The notes below the pieces were generated by a model. That model was not told the DNA's origin, made no database searches, and saw only the letters and a program-made list of their open reading frames with translations. From a virus: a DNA stretch of 64,000 bases. The stretch's first letter is position 1; every line of letters begins with the position of its first letter. Both the position numbers and the translations under genes were made by a program. Shown in pieces: positions 1,000 to 45,163 of the stretch. The stretch covers positions 95,837-159,836 of the IMG/VR virus record IMGVR_UViG_3300040801_002079. The stretch is one strand, 5' to 3'.

Positions 1000-1239
1000 T
1001 TAGTTACAAGTTACTATCGAACCGTCCGTATTATACTTCACAGACGCACCAGAGGTGAACTGGAGGTACTGAACACCGTCTACACAGATTTCACTGTACC
1101 CTGTAAACTTGGCACCAACCCGTTCCATCTGACCACAACCGGACATTGCTACAGCAACAATGATAATAGACGGTAGGAACATGAGCACCGGGAGGATACG
1201 ACTAATGTATTTGTTTTCTTCTTGCATGACATTCTCCAT
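1000..1239 (-). CDS. small membrane protein
   Basis: ORF track, 79 aa with a hydrophobic N-terminal helix. Confidence 0.5.
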   Translation of the reverse strand: MENVMQEENKYISRILPVLMFLPSIIIVAVAMSGCGQMERVGAKFTGYSEICVDGVQYLQFTSGASVKYNTDGSIVTCN

Positions 1240-2303: not shown

Positions 2304-2540
2304 TTACTCAACTGAACTTGGGTCGGAGGAATATAAAAGGTAACATTCCTCACGAATTAACCTTTCTCCTCCGGTAGCATAAAGAACCATTCCATCTGGT
2401 CCCATATTAACACCCGATATAACATGAAAACGAACCTGACCATTTTCTCCAATGGTTGCAACTGTATCATTCATCTGAGGAGTCAGTTCACTCTCTTCAG
2501 TGCACGGTCCATATAATTCTATTTCTAGTCTTCTGTTCAT
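2304..2540 (-). CDS. hypothetical protein
   Basis: ORF track 2304..2564; preferred start MNRRLEIE at 2540 with GGGAG RBS. Confidence 0.5.
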   Translation of the reverse strand: MNRRLEIELYGPCTEESELTPQMNDTVATIGENGQVRFHVISGVNMGPDGMVLYATGGERLIREECYLLYSSDPSSVE

Positions 2541-2805: not shown

Positions 2806-3087
2806 ATGCCACAAGACTTAATGACATGGGTTGCTGGATTCTCTGTTGCAGGGTTCATCTACCTTCTCTACCGTAACTGGATAATGTCCCACGCTATTCA
2901 AACCTTGTGGGAAACGTTCAAATCGGAAACTGAACGCATGGAGTCTGATCATCATCTTGAAAAAGCACTTAACGATACTCTGATTGGTAGTTTTATTGAA
3001 ACGATTGAGAGGTTCGATGAGCGTTTGAACATTATTGAAAAGGGTATGGACATTGTAGAAGAACAATCAGGAGAAACTAATGAATGA
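2806..3087 (+). CDS. membrane-anchored hypothetical protein
   Basis: ORF track, 93 aa, N-terminal TM helix. Confidence 0.55.
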   Translation: MPQDLMTWVAGFSVAGFIYLLYRNWIMSHAIQTLWETFKSETERMESDHHLEKALNDTLIGSFIETIERFDERLNIIEKGMDIVEEQSGETNE

Positions 3088-3217
3088 CCTTAAGGCATTA
3101 GGGACTATTATATCTTTGGGTGGAGCTTTCTTACTCCATGATATGCCATGGAATCATTTTGTAGGTATAATACTAATGGTTATAGGATTCTTTTTCTGGA
3201 TGAGGGAATTAGATTAG
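3080..3217 (+). CDS. small membrane protein (45 aa)
   Basis: ATGA overlap with the preceding stop; hydrophobic; not in track because under 60 aa. Confidence 0.3.
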   Translation: MNDLKALGTIISLGGAFLLHDMPWNHFVGIILMVIGFFFWMRELD

Positions 3218-3543
3218 ATTAGAAAAAACTAATATATTAATCCCGTAGGGGTAAAGTAAACTAAGTCTTTGATTTAGTTGAAGATTAAGTTTTTGCCTAT
3301 TTGTAGGAAAAACAATTTGGGCATTGATCGCGCCCTATGGTAAAACCGATTTATATGCATTCTCCCCACAAAAATACCACAATGTCCCAACTTTCCCCAC
3401 AAATTGCCCCGTTATTGACCTTTTCTATTCTGTTGAAAGCCTTGATCTATAGCCATTTTCTTCTATTTATATCAGAATGATATCACAATGATATCACAAT
3501 GCCATCAAAGTGGGTTTTTCGGGGTAATTTTCTGTTCACATAA

Positions 3544-18056: not shown

Positions 18057-19376
18057 ATGAAAATTAATGAAGTCATGGGCGGTGAAAAACGAGCCGCGAT
18101 AAAAAAGGGTACGAAAAGACCCATGGGACTTTCCCATAAAATCAATAAACAGTCTAAGAAACTCCAAAATAAAGCTGCTAGACGCAAAAGCAAGCGTGAA
18201 TTGGAATTGTCTGAGTCTATAAATGTAATTCTATTTGAAAAACTAAAATTACTCCATGATAAGAAAAATGGAGTTCTCGCTGTGGCTTCCGACGAAACTG
18301 ACCCCAAAAAGGCAAGCCGAGAAACGTATCGCAATAAAGATGCTCTTAAGTCTGCTGGTTTTAAATGGTCTGGTGGCAACTGGACTATTAGTGATTCTGA
18401 GTTTGAAAAAGCCAAGTCTACATTAACCACAATTAACAAAACAGAATACCTGATTAATAAACTGGAAGATGTTCAGGAATTTATCGGTGATGCTACCAGT
18501 GACCCTAAGAAGGGGAGATTAACCGATATGATTCAGGGTTATATTGATGACTTGGCAAGTGCTACAGATGAAGCCGCTGCTGCCGAAGAAATACGTAAGT
18601 ATTTGGATTTCTTCTCTAATTTTTATCAGTACAGTTTCTTCAATAAGATTTTAATCTATATTCAGAACCCGGATGCAACTCAGGTTGCTAGCTATAAAAA
18701 CTGGAGGAAAAAGCATCGTCAGGTTAAGAAGGGCGCTAAAGGTATGCAGATTCTCGTACCTATATTCCCAAAGGGACGCAATCCAAAATATGATGATGTG
18801 GATGAGGATGATAAAGCTCAGCCAGTAAGATTCATTGTTGGCAGCGTGTTTGATATTAAGGACACGGAAGCTATAGATGAAAGAGGTGAGGCTCCTGAAG
18901 AACCAGAGTGGTGGGGTGACAATACTCCAAGTGAAACGGCTAAAGACCTATTCAATTTGGTTGTCAAGGCAGCAGAAGCTGAAGGCATTGATATAACCTC
19001 TGATGATGCGAAAGGGGGAGAGAAGGGCTACAGTTCTGGTGGACATATTAACATCACATCGAATGTAGAAGGTGTGGGTGAAGTTTCCACGATGGTTCAT
19101 GAGTTTGCACACGAATTAATGCACTGGAAGGATCGCTCCAAGTTTTATGTTGGTGATGAGGCCGCTGGAAACAGGAAACTTAAAGAACTACAAGCCGAGA
19201 GTGTGTCATATGTTGTCCTGAAGCATTATAAGCTTCCAGTTGAGCATCACACTAAATATCTTGCTTTGTGGAGAGCAACCGGTGAAAAAATCAAGAACAA
19301 CATTGAAACAATTTCAAAAGTTGCTCATTACATTATTAAAAAGATTGACGCTCAAGCAGAAAAGAAATCTAAATAA
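18057..19376 (+). CDS. ArdC-like anti-restriction protein (ssDNA-binding N-domain plus HExxH metallopeptidase-like C-domain)
   Basis: ArdC-N-like segment NKILIYIQNPDATQVASYKNWRKKHRQVKKGAKGMQILVPIF; C-terminal HEFAHELMHW. Confidence 0.6.
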   Translation: MKINEVMGGEKRAAIKKGTKRPMGLSHKINKQSKKLQNKAARRKSKRELELSESINVILFEKLKLLHDKKNGVLAVASDETDPKKASRETYRNKDALKSAGFKWSGGNWTISDSEFEKAKSTLTTINKTEYLINKLEDVQEFIGDATSDPKKGRLTDMIQGYIDDLASATDEAAAAEEIRKYLDFFSNFYQYSFFNKILIYIQNPDATQVASYKNWRKKHRQVKKGAKGMQILVPIFPKGRNPKYDDVDEDDKAQPVRFIVGSVFDIKDTEAIDERGEAPEEPEWWGDNTPSETAKDLFNLVVKAAEAEGIDITSDDAKGGEKGYSSGGHINITSNVEGVGEVSTMVHEFAHELMHWKDRSKFYVGDEAAGNRKLKELQAESVSYVVLKHYKLPVEHHTKYLALWRATGEKIKNNIETISKVAHYIIKKIDAQAEKKSK

Positions 19377-19377
19377 G

Positions 19378-19406
19378 TTGACACCTGATACGTCATACCG
19401 TATAAT
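19378..19406 (+). promoter_or_regulatory. sigma70-type promoter (TTGACA-N17-TATAAT) placing the TSS at ATG 19413
   Basis: Perfect consensus; 6 nt from -10 to ATG. Confidence 0.6.
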
Positions 19407-19412
19407 GGCGGT

Positions 19413-20219
19413 ATGACTACACATAGAGAACAATTTTTAAATCAATGCGCCTGTATTGATTTTGAAACAACGAGCTTAGAACCCGAAGAAGCTGAAATCA
19501 TTGAGCAAGGCATAAGTGTATACGAAGATGGGAACTGGACTGTGGCAACTTCTATGTTGCACGACTGTAAAGCTCCAGATGTTCCAGCCGAAGCATCCGC
19601 TGTAAACAACATTACGAAGCCAATGCTAAAAGGTTACGGCCCATTCAGTCTTGATAATTTCGGATTATTATCTATAAAGCCTCATAGGAATATATTAATT
19701 TCACATAATGTCAAATATGACAGCATGGTATTAAAGAACTATGTTGATCCCGAGACATTTGAAGCACTTTCTTCTAATTGGCTATGCAGCTATCGTATGG
19801 CTAAAAAGTTATATGTTAATCGTCCCGAGTATAAATCATTAAGCCTTGCCTATCTACGGTACAGGCGCAAGCTATGTGAATTTGTTAAAATTCCAACCGA
19901 GCCTCACAGAGCGGGATATGATTCGTACATCAATGGCCTTCTTTTGGAGGACATTATCGACATATTAGAAGAGGCTAATATATTGGATAAGGATAAACCA
20001 TACTTTGGACAACTAAAAGATTGGCTGAAGCCACCTATAATGTTGGAATACATGCCCGGATTTGGTAAACATGCTGGGGAACGGTTGGACGAACTTGATT
20101 TCGGCTATTTGAAATGGGTGTTCGAAAATACCGACAGATGTGATGAGGATAGTCCCGAGTATGATATTGATCTGGCAACTACATTAGCTGGATATATGGC
20201 AAAAGCTTATAAGGGTTGA
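19413..20219 (+). CDS. DEDD-family 3'-5' exonuclease (DnaQ-like)
   Basis: Motifs DFETT, HNVKYD, HRAGYD. Confidence 0.6.
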   Translation: MTTHREQFLNQCACIDFETTSLEPEEAEIIEQGISVYEDGNWTVATSMLHDCKAPDVPAEASAVNNITKPMLKGYGPFSLDNFGLLSIKPHRNILISHNVKYDSMVLKNYVDPETFEALSSNWLCSYRMAKKLYVNRPEYKSLSLAYLRYRRKLCEFVKIPTEPHRAGYDSYINGLLLEDIIDILEEANILDKDKPYFGQLKDWLKPPIMLEYMPGFGKHAGERLDELDFGYLKWVFENTDRCDEDSPEYDIDLATTLAGYMAKAYKG

Positions 20220-20224
20220 TATAA

Positions 20225-20524
20225 ATGGATGATTTTTATAAAGAAATTATAGATTATATTCGCAAATCTGATGAAAAGAAGGTTCACTTAGCAGAGTTAT
20301 GGGATGTTTTCTTTGAAGGAAAAGATATTCCTGCCGGGGCTATCATGATGGGGCTATCTCATGATAGCATTAAACGGGTCATAGGCTTGTTTTCTCCGTA
20401 TACTGGAAACCTATTAGAAACATATGATTCTCTTGGGGATATTCCGTATACATGGGATGAAGATGGGGCATCATTTGAAATTAATGATACACATATCAGC
20501 GTGTGGTATGAATTAAATGAGTAA
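20225..20524 (+). CDS. hypothetical protein
   Basis: ORF track, 99 aa. Confidence 0.5.
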   Translation: MDDFYKEIIDYIRKSDEKKVHLAELWDVFFEGKDIPAGAIMMGLSHDSIKRVIGLFSPYTGNLLETYDSLGDIPYTWDEDGASFEINDTHISVWYELNE

Positions 20525-20639
20525 GGTTGGCTTCACATGCTCAACGTTTGATTTAACATATTGGACTTCTGATAAATATAATCAGAAAGAGGAGTCTTTA
20601 TATGTTTGGGTATATCTATATAACAACAAACCTGATTAA
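20517..20639 (+). pseudogene. orphaned 5' fragment of the cytidylyltransferase gene (MSKVGFTCSTFDL...)
   Basis: First 12 codons match the N-terminus of 21264..21680 (KIGFTCSTWDL) but are recoded at the nucleotide level; the frame then runs into the HEG region. Confidence 0.45.
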
Positions 20640-21263
20640 TGATAAGAAATATATTGGAAAAAGATATGGTGCGTTTGATTCAACATATTATGGATCAGGC
20701 ACTATATTAAAAAAGGCTATAGAGAAGTACGGACTTAAAAACTTTAACACTGTACTCTTGAAAGAATGTTGCAATGAAGAAGATATTAATAAATCAGAAA
20801 AAATATTAATACGTGTATTGAATCCGGAATATAACATAGCTGAAGGTGGAGCAGGAGGGAACACTCTACTACATGCGTCAGATGATCATAAATTAGAGGT
20901 GATTAAAAAAAGGTCTATATCCTTAAAGAAAGCATGGGATCGTAAAGATAGGAAAAAGTGGGGCAAAGCTATAAGTGAGGCAAAAAAAGGTAAAAGGTGT
21001 GGCGGGGTTAAAGCACATACTGATGAAACTAAATTGAAAATATCAAAAAGTAATAAAATTGCGGCTAAAAATAGACCGGAATCATGGAAAGTTAATCACC
21101 AAATTGCGTCAGAAAAGAGGAAGGGTATTCCAAATAAAAAATGCATGAAACCCCTAATCCTAGATGGTAAAAAGTATAATAGTAGAAAAGAGGCAGCGAA
21201 GAAACTTGGTGTAACGGGATCAATGATAACTTACTATATTAAAAAGGGTAGAGGTAGATATTT
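20525..21263 (+). mobile_element. homing-endonuclease cassette inserted at the 5' end of the cytidylyltransferase gene
   Basis: HEG flanked by a diverged duplicate of the target gene's first ~13 codons. Confidence 0.4.
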
Positions 21264-21267
21264 ATGA
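20602..21267 (+). CDS. GIY-YIG homing endonuclease
   Basis: N-terminal GYIYITTNLINDKKYIGK motif; basic DNA-binding C-terminus. Confidence 0.65.
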   Translation: MFGYIYITTNLINDKKYIGKRYGAFDSTYYGSGTILKKAIEKYGLKNFNTVLLKECCNEEDINKSEKILIRVLNPEYNIAEGGAGGNTLLHASDDHKLEVIKKRSISLKKAWDRKDRKKWGKAISEAKKGKRCGGVKAHTDETKLKISKSNKIAAKNRPESWKVNHQIASEKRKGIPNKKCMKPLILDGKKYNSRKEAAKKLGVTGSMITYYIKKGRGRYL

Positions 21268-21680
21268 AAATAGGGTTTACGTGCAGTACATGGGATTTAT
21301 TACATTCCGGGCATATTATCATGTTACGACAAGCTAAAGCACAGTGTGACTACCTGATTTGTGGACTCCAAGTTGATCCATCTGTTGACCGCTCTGAAAA
21401 AAATTCTCCCGTGCAAACATTGGTTGAGCGATATATTCAATTATCTGCTGTCAAATATGTTGATGAAATTATAACCTATCAAACTGAAAAGGATTTAGAA
21501 GATATATTGCAAATGATTGATATTGATGTCAGAATACTAGGCGAGGAATACCGAGAAAAAGATTTTACCGGTAAAGCAATTTGCAGAAAAAGAGGTATTG
21601 ACTTATTCTTCAACAAGAGGGATCATAGATTTTCTACTTCCGATTTAAGGAAGCGAGTTATGGAGGCAAACAATGTCTGA
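21264..21680 (+). CDS. cytidylyltransferase-like nucleotidyltransferase (HxGH motif)
   Basis: GFTCSTWDLLHSGH matches the (T/H)xGH nucleotidyltransferase signature. Confidence 0.55.
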   Translation: MKIGFTCSTWDLLHSGHIIMLRQAKAQCDYLICGLQVDPSVDRSEKNSPVQTLVERYIQLSAVKYVDEIITYQTEKDLEDILQMIDIDVRILGEEYREKDFTGKAICRKRGIDLFFNKRDHRFSTSDLRKRVMEANNV

Positions 21681-21879
21681 TTGGATTAATATTGACGAAG
21701 AACGTCCCGTTAAAATAAAGAAATACAAAGTTTTATTGAATGAAGAGCATGAATACGAAGCAACGTGGCATCCGGGTAAAGGAGAAAATGGAATGTTCGT
21801 TGATATTAACCTCATGATGGAGCTTCCTGATGTAACACATTGGAAGGATAATACTAAATATCTAAGAGGTACCGAATAA
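21673..21879 (+). CDS. hypothetical protein
   Basis: ORF track, 68 aa. Confidence 0.5.
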   Translation: MSDWINIDEERPVKIKKYKVLLNEEHEYEATWHPGKGENGMFVDINLMMELPDVTHWKDNTKYLRGTE

Positions 21880-22181
21880 TGGAAATTAGTAAAGATATTT
21901 TAAATAGTGTGCTTGAAAATGGTGAATATGAAGCAATAATAGAAAAAAATCTTCATAGTGGACCCCATTATAGTATGGTATTCGAAATGGATGATAAACT
22001 GTATAAGGCTTATTATATAGAGGGGTCACATGGACCCCGTTGGTTATCACCCAAACCTTCAAGCGAAACGGCTGAATGCACTGAGGTTGTACGAAAGGAA
22101 GAAACTCGTATCGTAATTGGATACGTTGATGTACACGAGGAACCCTCTACTACACCCATGTCATTGGATTATTATCTATAG
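21879..22181 (+). CDS. hypothetical protein
   Basis: ORF track, 100 aa. Confidence 0.5.
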   Translation: MEISKDILNSVLENGEYEAIIEKNLHSGPHYSMVFEMDDKLYKAYYIEGSHGPRWLSPKPSSETAECTEVVRKEETRIVIGYVDVHEEPSTTPMSLDYYL

Positions 22182-22218
22182 GTATTAGCCGTTAGTTCTC
22201 TAGCTACCGATTGGTGGC

Positions 22219-44729: not shown

Positions 44730-45095
44730 ATGTATACTGCATACGTATTAACAGAAAAATCTAGAAAGACCCTGTTCTTTCTTTTTCCACCAAAATATCC
44801 TGAGGTTATTGGTCACCATATAACCGAAACCTTCGGGGTTTCCAAAGATGCTGAAGCTCCGGAAATGCCAACGCTTGTTGAGGTTGTTGGCTACATCGAC
44901 AATGGTGATGGAGTTGAGGGATTCTTGGTGGAAATAGACGGGTCTAGTGATCGCCCATCTGGTGGTAAATATCACATTACATGGTCAATTGATCGTGATA
45001 AGGGATATAAGCCTGTTAATACTAATGATTATACAAATGATGCAAAACCGGTTAAGCCTGTACGATTGCAGGTTGAACCCAAAGTGCTCCGGTAG
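44730..45095 (+). CDS. hypothetical protein
   Basis: ORF track, 121 aa; its TAG stop lies inside the tRNA. Confidence 0.5.
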   Translation: MYTAYVLTEKSRKTLFFLFPPKYPEVIGHHITETFGVSKDAEAPEMPTLVEVVGYIDNGDGVEGFLVEIDGSSDRPSGGKYHITWSIDRDKGYKPVNTNDYTNDAKPVKPVRLQVEPKVLR

Positions 45096-45163
45096 CTCAG
45101 TTTGGTTAGAGCAAGAGCTTCTAAAACTCATGGTCGTGGGTTCGAATCCCGCCCGGAGCGCCA
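45086..45163 (+). tRNA. tRNA with CUA anticodon (amber-suppressor type); identity unknown; CCA encoded
   Basis: Cloverleaf read by hand: acceptor GCTCCGG/CCGGAGC, D-arm GCTC-AGTTTGGTTA-GAGC, anticodon loop TTCTAAA (U33-CUA-A37), T-arm GTGGG-TTCGAAT-CCCGC, discriminator G, CCA. Anticodon stem has only 3 Watson-Crick pairs. Confidence 0.6.

What the first reader, a model, noticed from the sequence alone, without database searches (positions are those of the whole stretch)
20517..21310. GIY-YIG homing endonuclease inserted into the 5' end of a cytidylyltransferase gene, with a recoded duplicate N-terminus
Directly after gene 20225..20524 an ORF begins MSKVGFTCSTFDLTYW. The first 12 codons encode the same peptide as the start of 21264..21680 (MKIGFTCSTWDLLHSGH, HxGH nucleotidyltransferase). 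Ten of the 12 shared codons nevertheless differ at the nucleotide level (aag/aaa, gtt/ata, ggc/ggg, ttc/ttt, aca/acg, tca/agt...). The GIY-YIG gene 20602..21267 sits between them, and its stop overlaps the downstream ATG. This pattern is expected when a homing-endonuclease cassette carries an immune, synonymously recoded copy of its own target site. The orphan 5' fragment is then the original gene start, and it marks the likely cleavage site.
Basis: seen in the sequence. Interest (0 to 1): 0.6.

Follow-up and report, generated by a model that had tools for sequence, protein, structure and literature searches.

The report
Homing endonuclease that re-caps its target gene
A selfish endonuclease gene has inserted just inside the start of a phage cytidylyltransferase gene and brought a replacement gene start, leaving the old start stranded upstream; about 17 further distinct metagenomic phage loci carry the same endonuclease-transferase pairing, and the closer ones keep such a stranded piece, so this is a small, apparently undescribed family of a known kind of mobile element.

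Summary
ORF 20517..20639 starts with a copy of the cytidylyltransferase (CT) N-terminus (KVGFTCSTFDL against KIGFTCSTWDL). A GIY-YIG endonuclease gene (HEG, 20602..21267) lies between this orphan and the intact CT (21264..21680).

The arrangement is not a one-off. Every full-length homolog of this HEG (37-59% identity, about 18 distinct loci) sits directly upstream of a CT gene. The closer ones also carry a CT 5' relic ending ...TTTGAT, followed by a conserved ATAAATA motif, a ribosome-binding site and the HEG.

For one homolog (L181/L182), syntenic HEG-free phages give the empty site. The insertion lies after CT nt 33, the orphan is the native start, and the intact 5' end is cassette-borne.

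The window has two stacked upstream pieces: a fresh orphan (20517..20552) and an older carried relic (20550..20573).

None of 82 HEG-free CT loci has such a duplicate.

Cleavage, immunity of the carried copy and current mobility are not tested. The closest analogues are T4 Seg-type free-standing HEGs and fungal mitochondrial mobile ORFs that carry a replacement gene terminus. I rate it a new variant of a known kind, of moderate interest.

The parts
20225..20524 (+). Upstream gene p99 (99 aa, no known family). Its stop is overlapped by the orphan ATG.
   Evidence: ORF list. No Pfam or PHROG hit. The only database match is itself, on a 317-kb JGI contig.
20517..20552 (+). Fresh orphan, corresponding to CT nt 1-33 of a typical HEG-free allele (36 nt here because of one extra codon): ATG AGT AAG GTT GGC TTC ACA TGC TCA ACG TTT GAT. 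I read it as the recipient's original gene start. The open frame runs on to 20639 (40 aa).
   Evidence: Weight-matrix score 32.3, the best in the window and at the 32nd percentile of real HEG-free alleles. The peptide is 11 of 13 identical to the HEG-free CT start of L259.
20550..20573 (+). Older carried relic of CT nt 10-33 (GATTTAACATATTGGACTTCTGAT). It shares its first three bases (GAT, 20550..20552) with the end of the fresh orphan. It is homologous to the relics next to the HEG in other cassettes.
   Evidence: Weight-matrix score 5.8, in the top 4e-5 of window positions. 18 of 24 nt identical to the relics of L169 and L183. It aligns with the conserved relic block in alignment A3.
20553..20582 (+). 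Promoter-like region: TTAACA-18 nt-TATAAT (11 of 12 matches to sigma-70 consensus). It includes GATAAATA (20571..20578), the family-wide NATAAATA motif.
   Evidence: for the sigma-70 match. The motif is conserved 25-32 nt (motif start to ATG) upstream of the HEG ATG in the 8 cassettes measured, and ATAAATA-like sequence is visible upstream of the HEG in most others. ATAAATA is enriched upstream of ORF starts in the window. Function is inferred.
20587..20594 (+). Shine-Dalgarno-like AAGAGGAG, ending 7 nt before the HEG ATG.
   Evidence: Sequence. An equivalent AGGAG is present in the homologous cassettes.
20602..21267 (+). Free-standing GIY-YIG homing endonuclease gene (221 aa). The architecture is I-TevI/Seg-like: an N-terminal catalytic domain and a C-terminal helix-turn-helix DNA-binding domain.
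   Evidence: phrog_314 at 2e-35. Weak Pfam GIY-YIG, SegE, NUMOD3 and HTH hits. 16 full-length homologs with invariant GYIY..Y(I/V)G, E66 and N78. PDB and Foldseek matches to I-TevI.
21264..21296 (+). Cassette-borne replacement 5' end of CT (ATG AAA ATA GGG TTT ACG TGC AGT ACA TGG GAT). It is atypical in sequence, including F to W.
   Evidence: Weight-matrix score 20.5, below 99% of HEG-free alleles.
21264..21680 (+). Intact cytidylyltransferase-like gene (138 aa, HSGH motif). Its start overlaps the HEG stop, and its end overlaps the next gene's start by 8 nt.
   Evidence: PF01467 at 2.4e-12. phrog_7878 at 9e-36. 75-85% identical to thousands of metagenomic phage CTs.

Best explanation
A free-standing GIY-YIG homing endonuclease cassette is lodged inside the ancestral coding sequence of a phage cytidylyltransferase gene, right after the codons ...TTT GAT (Phe-Asp of the STFDLLHxGH motif; nt 33 of a typical allele).

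The cassette consists of a short decayed relic of the CT 5' end, a promoter-like ATAAATA motif, a ribosome-binding site, the HEG, and a fresh start codon plus the first about 11 CT codons. These codons fuse in frame to the resident gene body. The gene therefore stays intact without an intron or intein, and the resident start is left as a dead orphan upstream.

Inferred mechanism (not tested). The enzyme cuts HEG-free CT alleles near this conserved site. The break is repaired from a HEG+ genome using CT sequence on both sides: the CT body on the right and the short relic on the left. This would let the cassette move between phages that share nothing but the CT gene.

Because the left arm is short and decayed, the left junction is often out of register, and orphans pile up. 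The window (fresh orphan plus older relic), L178 and L184 show this. The well-preserved orphan in the window points to a fairly recent invasion of this jumbo phage.
For: Shown:
1. Anatomy of the window.
2. HEG-CT linkage. All loci with a full-length HEG homolog and sequence available downstream have CT directly after the HEG: 38 loci, about 18 distinct sequences, several unrelated gene neighbourhoods. 47 loci whose HEG matches only the catalytic domain have no CT.
3. A CT 5' relic ends in TTTGAT, usually directly followed by AAATAAAT (a few bases further on in L171 and L183). It is significant in 7 of 9 of the closer cassettes.
4. Empty site for L181/L182 against syntenic HEG-free L010/L024/L019. 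The orphan is nearer the native alleles than the intact copy is.
5. No CT 5' duplicate in 82 HEG-free loci.
6. The window orphan is typical of HEG-free alleles, and the intact 5' end is atypical.
7. The HEG and CT histories disagree for the window. The closest HEGs (58-59% identity) go with distant CTs (60%). The closest CTs are HEG-free alleles at 83-85%.
8. The HEG is intact, with conserved catalytic positions and an I-TevI-like fold.

From the literature: one-sided homology gives illegitimate, microhomology-mediated double-strand-break repair in T4 homing (PMC2988022).
Against: - No HEG-free relative of the window's own lineage exists in the searched collections, so for the window itself the empty site rests on analogy.
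- Cleavage activity, cut position and resistance of the carried copy are untested.
- Pfam GIY-YIG is below its gathering score, and no residue aligns with I-TevI Arg27.
- In the more distant HEG group (L188-L206) the relic is not statistically detectable.
- Overall, HEG and CT identities correlate moderately (rho 0.42), so part of the family history is vertical.
- All six extra contigs of this phage carry the HEG, so there is no sign of ongoing polymorphism.
Confidence: 0.8

Rival explanations
1. This is an ordinary intergenic free-standing HEG (T4 seg-like) that landed between p99 and CT. The upstream CT-like pieces are only scars of one illegitimate recombination event and play no part in mobility. 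The intact CT is wholly native.
For: T4 seg and mob genes are intergenic and cut a neighbouring gene (PMC2988022). The window CT's 3' end overlaps the next gene in the same 8-nt style as p99 and the orphan, so at least the CT body looks resident.
Against: The junction ...TTTGAT followed by the ATAAATA motif recurs in cassettes whose HEGs are only 43-59% identical and whose neighbours differ. In L181 the native-like copy is the upstream one and the copy joined to the gene body is the foreign one. The window's intact 5' segment is atypical while the orphan is typical.
Confidence: 0.12
2. The HEG sits in a group I intron (or a similar splicing element) that interrupts CT. Exon 1 is the orphan, and splicing joins it to the CT body.
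For: Joining ...TTTGAT (20552) to TTA CAT... (21297) would be in frame. GIY-YIG HEGs are often intron-borne, and JGI names the homologs 'group I intron endonuclease'.
Against: No Rfam family hits 19800..22200 even at E up to 1. Only 49 nt of non-coding sequence lie between the orphan and the HEG, and none after it, so there is no room for a ribozyme core. The downstream gene has its own ribosome-binding site, its own ATG and the full N-terminus. The fold of 20500..20640 is not unusual (z = -1.04).
Confidence: 0.02
3. The HEG is a domesticated or dead passenger, inherited vertically. The orphan and relic persist only because they now supply the promoter and regulatory region for the HEG and CT.
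For: The relic forms the -35 box of a near-consensus promoter. All contigs of this population carry the HEG. One contig has an A6/A7 frameshift in the HEG. HEG and CT identities correlate partly.
Against: The orphan is not decayed: its weight-matrix score lies within the range of live alleles. The ORF is intact with all family-invariant residues. The HEG and CT trees disagree for the window. Stacked orphans in three independent loci imply repeated invasions.
Confidence: 0.06

Closest known systems
T4-type free-standing GIY-YIG homing endonucleases (Seg family; 'intronless homing')
   Same: Both have a stand-alone ORF with its own ribosome-binding site, tightly packed between phage genes. Both have an I-TevI/Seg-like two-domain protein. 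The best hits in cultured phages are 'Seg-like' genes of T4-like phages at about 32% identity over the full length. The presumed spread is by double-strand break and gene conversion with co-conversion of the flanks (PMC2988022).
   Different: Seg and mob genes lie between genes. This cassette lies inside the ancestral coding sequence and repairs it with its own start codon and first about 11 codons. It is flanked on both sides by target-gene sequence. The target gene (a cytidylyltransferase) has not been reported as a HEG target in the papers searched.
Fungal mitochondrial mobile ORFs that carry a replacement gene terminus (Allomyces macrogynus atp6; Glomus atp6, atp9, cox2, nad3)
   Same: The HEG is inserted in a coding sequence without an intron. 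The element carries a foreign copy of the gene end, which is fused to the resident gene. The native end is left as a displaced duplicate that matches close relatives, while the carried copy is divergent (about 64-81% nt) (PMC3630166). The same logic and the same numbers apply here: 21 of 33 nt = 64%.
   Different: Those cases replace the 3' (C-terminal) end, and the HEG is often fused in frame with the host gene, in organelle genomes. Here the 5' end is replaced. The HEG is a separate ORF upstream of the rebuilt gene and has a promoter-like motif. The hosts are phages. Relics are stacked.
I-TevI (T4 td intron endonuclease), including its operator/late-promoter autorepression
   Same: The catalytic and DNA-binding domains are the best structural matches. 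A homing-site-like sequence (the relic) abuts a late-promoter-like TATAAATA-type motif just upstream of the HEG ORF. I-TevI has the same arrangement, where that sequence acts as an operator (PMC2988022).
   Different: There is no intron. Sequence identity is only about 24-27% in the catalytic domain. Operator function here is purely inferred.
Genes split by HEG insertion in T4-like phages (for example Aeh1 nrdA/mobE)
   Same: The HEG ORF lies inside a formerly continuous conserved gene, and gene function is retained without splicing (from my own knowledge of the literature; the review PMC2988022 covers Aeh1 mobE).
   Different: In those cases the two gene pieces both remain functional and assemble as a protein complex. 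Here the upstream piece is a dead 12-codon stub and the downstream gene is complete.

Membership tests
GIY-YIG homing endonuclease (I-TevI/Seg type) | GIY...YIG motif, plus the conserved catalytic Glu and Asn of the alpha/beta core | tested here: met
   GYIY(4-6)...Y17-I-G19, E66 and Y77-N78 are invariant in 17 family members. They align with the I-TevI catalytic domain 1LN0 and with its E75A mutant 1MK0. Foldseek gives probability 1.00 for 1LN0 and 1MK0.
GIY-YIG homing endonuclease (I-TevI/Seg type) | Conserved catalytic Arg (Arg27 of I-TevI) | tested here: inconclusive
   The profile alignment places a gap opposite the Arg27 region. K20 and R21/K21 are nearby candidates.
GIY-YIG homing endonuclease (I-TevI/Seg type) | Passes the curated Pfam GIY-YIG (PF01541) or SegE_GIY-YIG (PF19835) thresholds | tested here: not met
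   13.6 bits against a 22.6 cut-off, and 16.3 against 25. PHROG 314 'homing endonuclease' is strong at 2e-35, and several homologs carry precomputed PF19835 or PF01541 hits.
GIY-YIG homing endonuclease (I-TevI/Seg type) | Separate C-terminal DNA-binding module (NUMOD or helix-turn-helix) joined by a linker | tested here: met
   The AF2 model (pLDDT 82.5) has a helical linker and a C-terminal beta-beta-helix-turn-helix. Foldseek hits the I-TevI DNA-binding domain 1I3J with probability 1.00 and E 0.028. Pfam NUMOD3, HTH and MerR hits are weak.
Homing endonuclease gene (mobile element) | Presence/absence polymorphism at one fixed site among otherwise colinear genomes | tested here: met
   Met for the homologous cassette L181/L182 against HEG-free L010, L024 and L019. 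Not available for the window's own lineage.
Homing endonuclease gene (mobile element) | The enzyme cuts the HEG-free allele and spares its own genome | not testable with these tools
   There are only indirect hints. The intact 5' segment is atypical. The F codon is changed to W or L in 4 of 16 HEG+ alleles against 0 of 82 HEG-free alleles (Fisher 5e-4, not corrected for phylogeny).
Free-standing (intron-less, intein-less) HEG | Own ORF and translation signals; no ribozyme or intein around it | tested here: met
   No Rfam hit. AAGAGGAG ends 7 nt upstream of the ATG. The HEG and CT are in different frames with ATGA overlap.
Free-standing (intron-less, intein-less) HEG | Intergenic location beside the target gene | tested here: not met
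   The insertion point lies after nt 33 of the ancestral CT coding sequence. The gene is rebuilt by cassette-borne codons.
Gene-terminus-carrying mobile ORF (Allomyces atp6 type) | The HEG is flanked by a duplicated gene terminus; the native copy is orphaned and resembles relatives, and the carried copy is divergent and in use | tested here: met
   In L181 the orphan is 21-27 of 33 nt identical to syntenic HEG-free starts, against 16-18 of 33 for the intact copy. In the window the orphan scores 32.3 and the intact copy 20.5 against a median of 33.8 for HEG-free alleles.
Gene-terminus-carrying mobile ORF (Allomyces atp6 type) | The 3' (C-terminal) end is replaced, with the HEG ORF downstream of or in phase with the host gene; organelle genome | tested here: not met
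   Here the 5' end is replaced, the HEG is upstream and is a separate ORF, and the genome is a phage.
Group I intron-encoded HEG | A ribozyme core flanks the ORF, and the exons are joined by splicing | tested here: not met
   Rfam finds nothing at E up to 1. Non-coding space is 49 nt upstream and 0 nt downstream of the HEG.
Cytidylyltransferase-like nucleotidyltransferase (PF01467) | N-terminal (H/T)xGH motif and the family profile across the whole length | tested here: met
   PF01467 at 2.4e-12 over residues 6-131. HSGH lies at residues 14-17. The substrate is unknown; database names vary between glycerol-3-phosphate cytidylyltransferase and heptose adenylyltransferase.

The most novel reading that the evidence does not exclude
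The cassette is a self-contained, portable homing unit whose two homology arms both lie inside one highly conserved gene. The carried relic has three jobs. It is the left recombination arm. It supplies the -35 and flank of the HEG promoter. It also acts as a decoy operator to which the endonuclease binds without cutting, repressing itself as I-TevI does. The cassette-borne first 11 codons make the rebuilt gene resistant to cutting. Stacked orphans would then record successive jumps between unrelated marine phages, including into a 317-kb jumbo phage.
Probability: 0.3. Interest if true: 0.65.

Novelty: new variant of a known kind. Interest (0 to 1): 0.55.

Why it matters
**A third way for a HEG to live inside a gene.** Homing endonucleases normally avoid killing their host gene in one of two ways: they hide in an intron or intein, or they sit between genes. 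This family shows another solution in phages. It inserts in the coding sequence and brings a new gene start. Until now that solution was documented mainly at the 3' ends of fungal mitochondrial genes.

**Independence from genome context.** Because the cassette is bracketed by sequence of a gene that is 75-85% conserved across thousands of unrelated marine phage contigs, it does not depend on the neighbouring genes. That gives a concrete route for gene flow between unrelated phages.

**Practical value.**
- It explains a mis-annotation: the source's gene caller truncated the transferase and lost its HxGH motif.
- It supplies a candidate natural nuclease with a defined target region of about 30-40 bp.
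- It gives a sequence signature (...TTTGAT followed by AAATAAAT) for finding more such elements.

Tried and rejected
- **Megablast of 19400..22200 against cultured phages.** No match.
- **Search for HEG-free relatives of the window's own lineage.** p99 has no homolog other than itself among 5.8 billion proteins and none in IMG/VR. The exonuclease gene has none in IMG/VR. The closest CT proteins on very large contigs (L258-L260) are not syntenic. The six extra contigs of the same population are 99.9-100% identical and all carry the HEG.
- **A 2-nt deletion in the orphan.** The nucleotide-profile alignment suggested the orphan runs to CT nt 47 with a 2-nt deletion. I now prefer the reading that 20550..20573 is a separate carried relic, because it aligns with the relic blocks of other cassettes. 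The two readings cannot be fully separated.
- **Intron hypothesis.** Rfam found nothing.
- **RNA structure hiding the HEG ribosome-binding site.** The fold is not better than shuffles (z = -1.04).
- **'Deliberate synonymous recoding'.** The divergence is ordinary for this gene.
- **Selection on the relic.** Relic identity between cassettes (54-88%) can be explained by renewal from recipients at each invasion, so I make no claim of constraint.
- **Relic in the distant HEG group (L188-L206).** It is visible by eye in L197 and L198 but is not significant with an ungapped matrix.
Full report
**1. The observation**

Gene p99 (20225..20524) ends in TAA. Eight bases before that stop, an ATG opens a 40-codon frame (20517..20639) beginning MSKVGFTCSTFDLTYW. 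A 221-codon ORF (20602..21267) follows. Its TGA overlaps the ATG of a 138-codon ORF (21264..21680) beginning MKIGFTCSTWDLLHSGH.

- The last ORF is a cytidylyltransferase-like nucleotidyltransferase, called CT below (PF01467, 2.4e-12; phrog_7878, 9e-36).
- The middle ORF is a GIY-YIG homing endonuclease, called HEG below. It matches phrog_314 'homing endonuclease' at 2e-35.
- A profile of the HEG and 16 homologs matches the I-TevI catalytic domain (1LN0, E 1.3e-4).
- An AlphaFold model (pLDDT 82.5) has the I-TevI catalytic domain and the I-TevI DNA-binding domain as its best solved-structure matches.
- Pfam's own GIY-YIG models are below threshold.

After a one-codon offset, the two N-termini share 9 of 11 residues.

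The match is far beyond chance.
- The orphan's only notable hit in the six-frame translation of the whole window is the CT start (E 0.002).
- A nucleotide profile of 80 CT 5' ends finds it at E 3.5e-7.
- A weight matrix of CT nt 10-33 ranks 20529..20552 first of about 128,000 positions.

**2. Where the window comes from**

p99 matches only itself, on JGI metagenome contigs from samples 3300040774-79, the longest 316,801 bp. The window is therefore part of an uncultured jumbo phage. Six short contigs of the same population are 99.9-100% identical and all carry the HEG.

No relative of this lineage was found by any route. The empty site of this particular genome therefore cannot be shown directly.

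**3. The CT gene is a widely shared, highly conserved phage gene**

IMG/VR holds at least 596 relatives at roughly 75-83% protein identity. The large protein collection holds more than 7,800 at E <= 1e-40. None of the 80 best IMG/VR loci shares any neighbouring gene with the window.

Their N-termini are nearly uniform: MK[VI]GFTCSTFDLLHAG.

Divergence between two such alleles over the 33 bases in question averages 24.8 of 33 identical. 13% of allele pairs are as different as the window's two copies, or more so.

**4. The HEG is specifically tied to CT**

The protein has a set of full-length homologs at 41-59% identity. The three closest (P0003, P0004, P0005) each lie directly upstream of, and overlap, a CT gene, in three different gene neighbourhoods.

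A scan of IMG/VR with the family alignment gave 79 more loci.
- Every locus whose HEG matches over its full length and has sequence downstream carries CT right after it. That is 38 loci and about 18 distinct sequences.
- The 47 loci that match only the catalytic domain have no CT.
- In cultured phages the best matches are only 32-34% identical (Seg-like genes of T4-like phages, and a Geobacillus phage). The one locus inspected (Escherichia phage AV115) lies between gene 33 and gene 59 homologs, not beside CT, and none of the listed records belongs to the phage groups that carry a CT homolog.

**5. The duplicated gene start is a family trait**

Just upstream of the HEG, the closer cassettes all carry a piece resembling CT nt 10-33. 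It ends ...TTTGAT and is followed, directly in most cassettes and a few bases further on in L171 and L183, by a conserved (G/T)ATAAATA(AAT) motif, an AGGAG-type ribosome-binding site and the HEG ATG.

With a weight matrix built from 82 HEG-free alleles, the piece is unmatched by any background position in 7 of 9 of these loci. It is marginal in two. It is not detectable in the more distant group L188-L206.

In contrast, none of 82 HEG-free CT loci has any second CT-5'-like sequence near the gene.

The second test also fails to refute. The orphan frame has no homolog beyond the CT-like residues. In other loci it stops at once (for example L181: MKVGITFSAFDK*).

**6. An empty site for a homologous cassette**

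L181/L182 is colinear at 72-76% nucleotide identity with HEG-free loci L010, L024, L019, L034 and L040. The alignment (A2) runs through the upstream gene and the CT ATG, as far as ...TTTGAT. At that point L182 departs into AAATAAATGTATTAGGAGAACACT-ATG(HEG). After the HEG, the CT sequence resumes with its own ...GCGTTTGAT-CTTTTACATGCC.

The L181 orphan shares 21-27 of 33 bases with the relatives' CT starts. The copy attached to the gene body shares only 16-18.

So the upstream piece is the native start, and the working start came with the HEG. The insertion point is after nt 33 of the coding sequence.

**7. Reading the window in this light**

The window has three copies of CT nt 10-33:
- the orphan, 20529..20552, score 32.3;
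- a decayed relic, 20550..20573 (GATTTAACATATTGGACTTCTGAT), score 5.8, in the top 4e-5 of positions;
- the live gene, 21273..21296, score 20.5.

The relic aligns with the relic blocks next to the HEG in other cassettes, with 18 of 24 bases identical to those of L169 and L183. L178 and L184 show the same stacking of a fresh orphan on an older relic.

Against leave-one-out scores of HEG-free alleles (median 33.8, 5th percentile 24.8), the orphan is a typical allele. The live copy scores lower than 99% of them. It carries TGG (Trp) where all 82 HEG-free alleles have Phe. Among 16 distinct HEG+ alleles, three have Trp and one has Leu at that codon (Fisher 5e-4, not corrected for relatedness).

This is what a cassette-borne and possibly cut-resistant segment would look like, but it is not proof.

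An earlier reading was that the orphan continues to CT nt 47 with a 2-nt deletion. It is less well supported than the relic reading, but it cannot be excluded.

**8. Evidence for movement between lineages**

- The window's closest HEGs (L169 and L171, 58-59% identity) accompany distant CT bodies (60%).
- The closest HEG+ CT bodies (72-75%) accompany HEGs only 45-52% identical.
- HEG-free alleles reach 83-85% identity to the window's CT.
- Across all pairs, the HEG and CT identities correlate only moderately (rho 0.42).

**9. Proposed mechanism**

These parts are shown: the architecture, the HEG-CT linkage, the fixed insertion point, the native identity of the orphan in L181, and the absence of duplicates without a HEG.

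This part is inferred. The enzyme cuts HEG-free CT alleles near the conserved STFDLLHxGH-coding stretch. Repair copies the cassette from a HEG+ genome, with the CT body as the right arm and the short relic as the left arm.

With such a short and decayed left arm, repair would often be out of register, which explains the stacked orphans. The T4 literature documents microhomology junctions when one flank lacks homology (PMC2988022).

The cassette also supplies expression signals. In the window, the relic and the ATAAATA region form TTAACA-18-TATAAT (11 of 12, 20553..20582), ending 19 nt before the HEG ATG. The ATAAATA core resembles the T4-type late-promoter box (that resemblance is from my own knowledge). 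In this window it lies 8-60 nt upstream of ORF starts far more often than expected: 8 of 26 occurrences against 6.7% on the forward strand, and 4 of 12 against 2.2% on the reverse strand.

A homing-site-like sequence abutting the promoter of the HEG is the arrangement through which I-TevI represses itself (PMC2988022). Whether that holds here is untested.

**10. Comparison with what is known**

As a protein and as a free-standing phage HEG, this is a relative of the T4 Seg family and I-TevI. It differs in lying inside the ancestral coding sequence and in rebuilding the gene.

That trick is documented for fungal mitochondrial mobile ORFs: Allomyces atp6, and Glomus atp6, atp9, cox2 and nad3. 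There the element carries a foreign C-terminus and the native C-terminus is left as a displaced duplicate about 64-81% identical (PMC3630166).

The present case is the mirror image at the 5' end, in phages, with a separate HEG ORF. Full-text searches found no report of a HEG associated with a phage cytidylyltransferase, and none of target-gene start duplication by a phage HEG. That literature set is incomplete.

**11. Verdict**

- the codon count was too high;
- the sequence divergence is ordinary, not special recoding;
- the orphan marks the insertion site, not the cut site;
- there is a second relic;
- the arrangement belongs to a family of at least about 18 distinct cassettes.

I rate it a new variant of a known kind, with interest 0.55.

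Noticed in passing
window 45086..45163 (+): ARAGORN calls a tRNA with anticodon CTA (labelled tRNA-Pyl). This is an amber-suppressor-type tRNA in a jumbo-phage contig, and it raises the possibility that TAG is read through in some genes. The genes of this finding end in TAA or TGA and are unaffected.
   Followed up: no
window 21321..21680 (JGI call; L163 1165..1524): The source's gene caller starts the transferase at the internal ATG 21321 (119 aa), which cuts off the HxGH motif. The 138-aa ORF from 21264, with GAGGT 8 nt upstream of the ATG, is the plausible gene. The HEG overlap probably misled the caller.
   Followed up: partly
window 20982..20988; L166 about 1086..1091: One contig of the same population has A6 instead of A7 inside the HEG, splitting it into 144 + 77 aa. 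This is either a homopolymer assembly error or a decaying HEG allele.
   Followed up: partly
L169 about 2310..2385 (and L170): In this homologous locus the relic and HEG cassette sit directly after a sequence that reads like a tRNA gene (GCGTCTGTAGCTCAGTTGG...CCA; judged by eye, ARAGORN was not run on it). The CT gene there apparently followed a tRNA before the invasion.
   Followed up: no
window-wide, e.g. 18025, 25156, 46713, 49360(-), 57272(-): TATAAATA/ATAAATA motifs lie 8-60 nt upstream of ORF starts much more often than expected: 8 of 26 forward and 4 of 12 reverse, against 6.7% and 2.2% expected. This suggests a T4-like late-promoter signal in this jumbo phage.
   Followed up: partly
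window 18057..19376 and 19413..20219: The genes upstream of the finding encode an ArdC-N-domain protein (PF08401, 5.5e-10) and an RNase T/DnaQ-like exonuclease (PF00929; phrog_192 'DNA polymerase exonuclease subunit'). Neither has close relatives in IMG/VR.
   Followed up: no
L216, L217, L219-L223, L237 (e.g. L216 662..1132 and 3001..3456): Several unrelated viral contigs carry two paralogous GIY-YIG genes about 2 kb apart. They match only the catalytic half of the window's HEG, and no CT gene is nearby.
   Followed up: no
L003..L082, L258..L260: The CT gene is kept at about 75-85% protein identity across thousands of metagenomic phage contigs that share no neighbouring genes. This is an unusually conserved, freely shuffled phage gene whose substrate and role are unknown.
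   Followed up: partly
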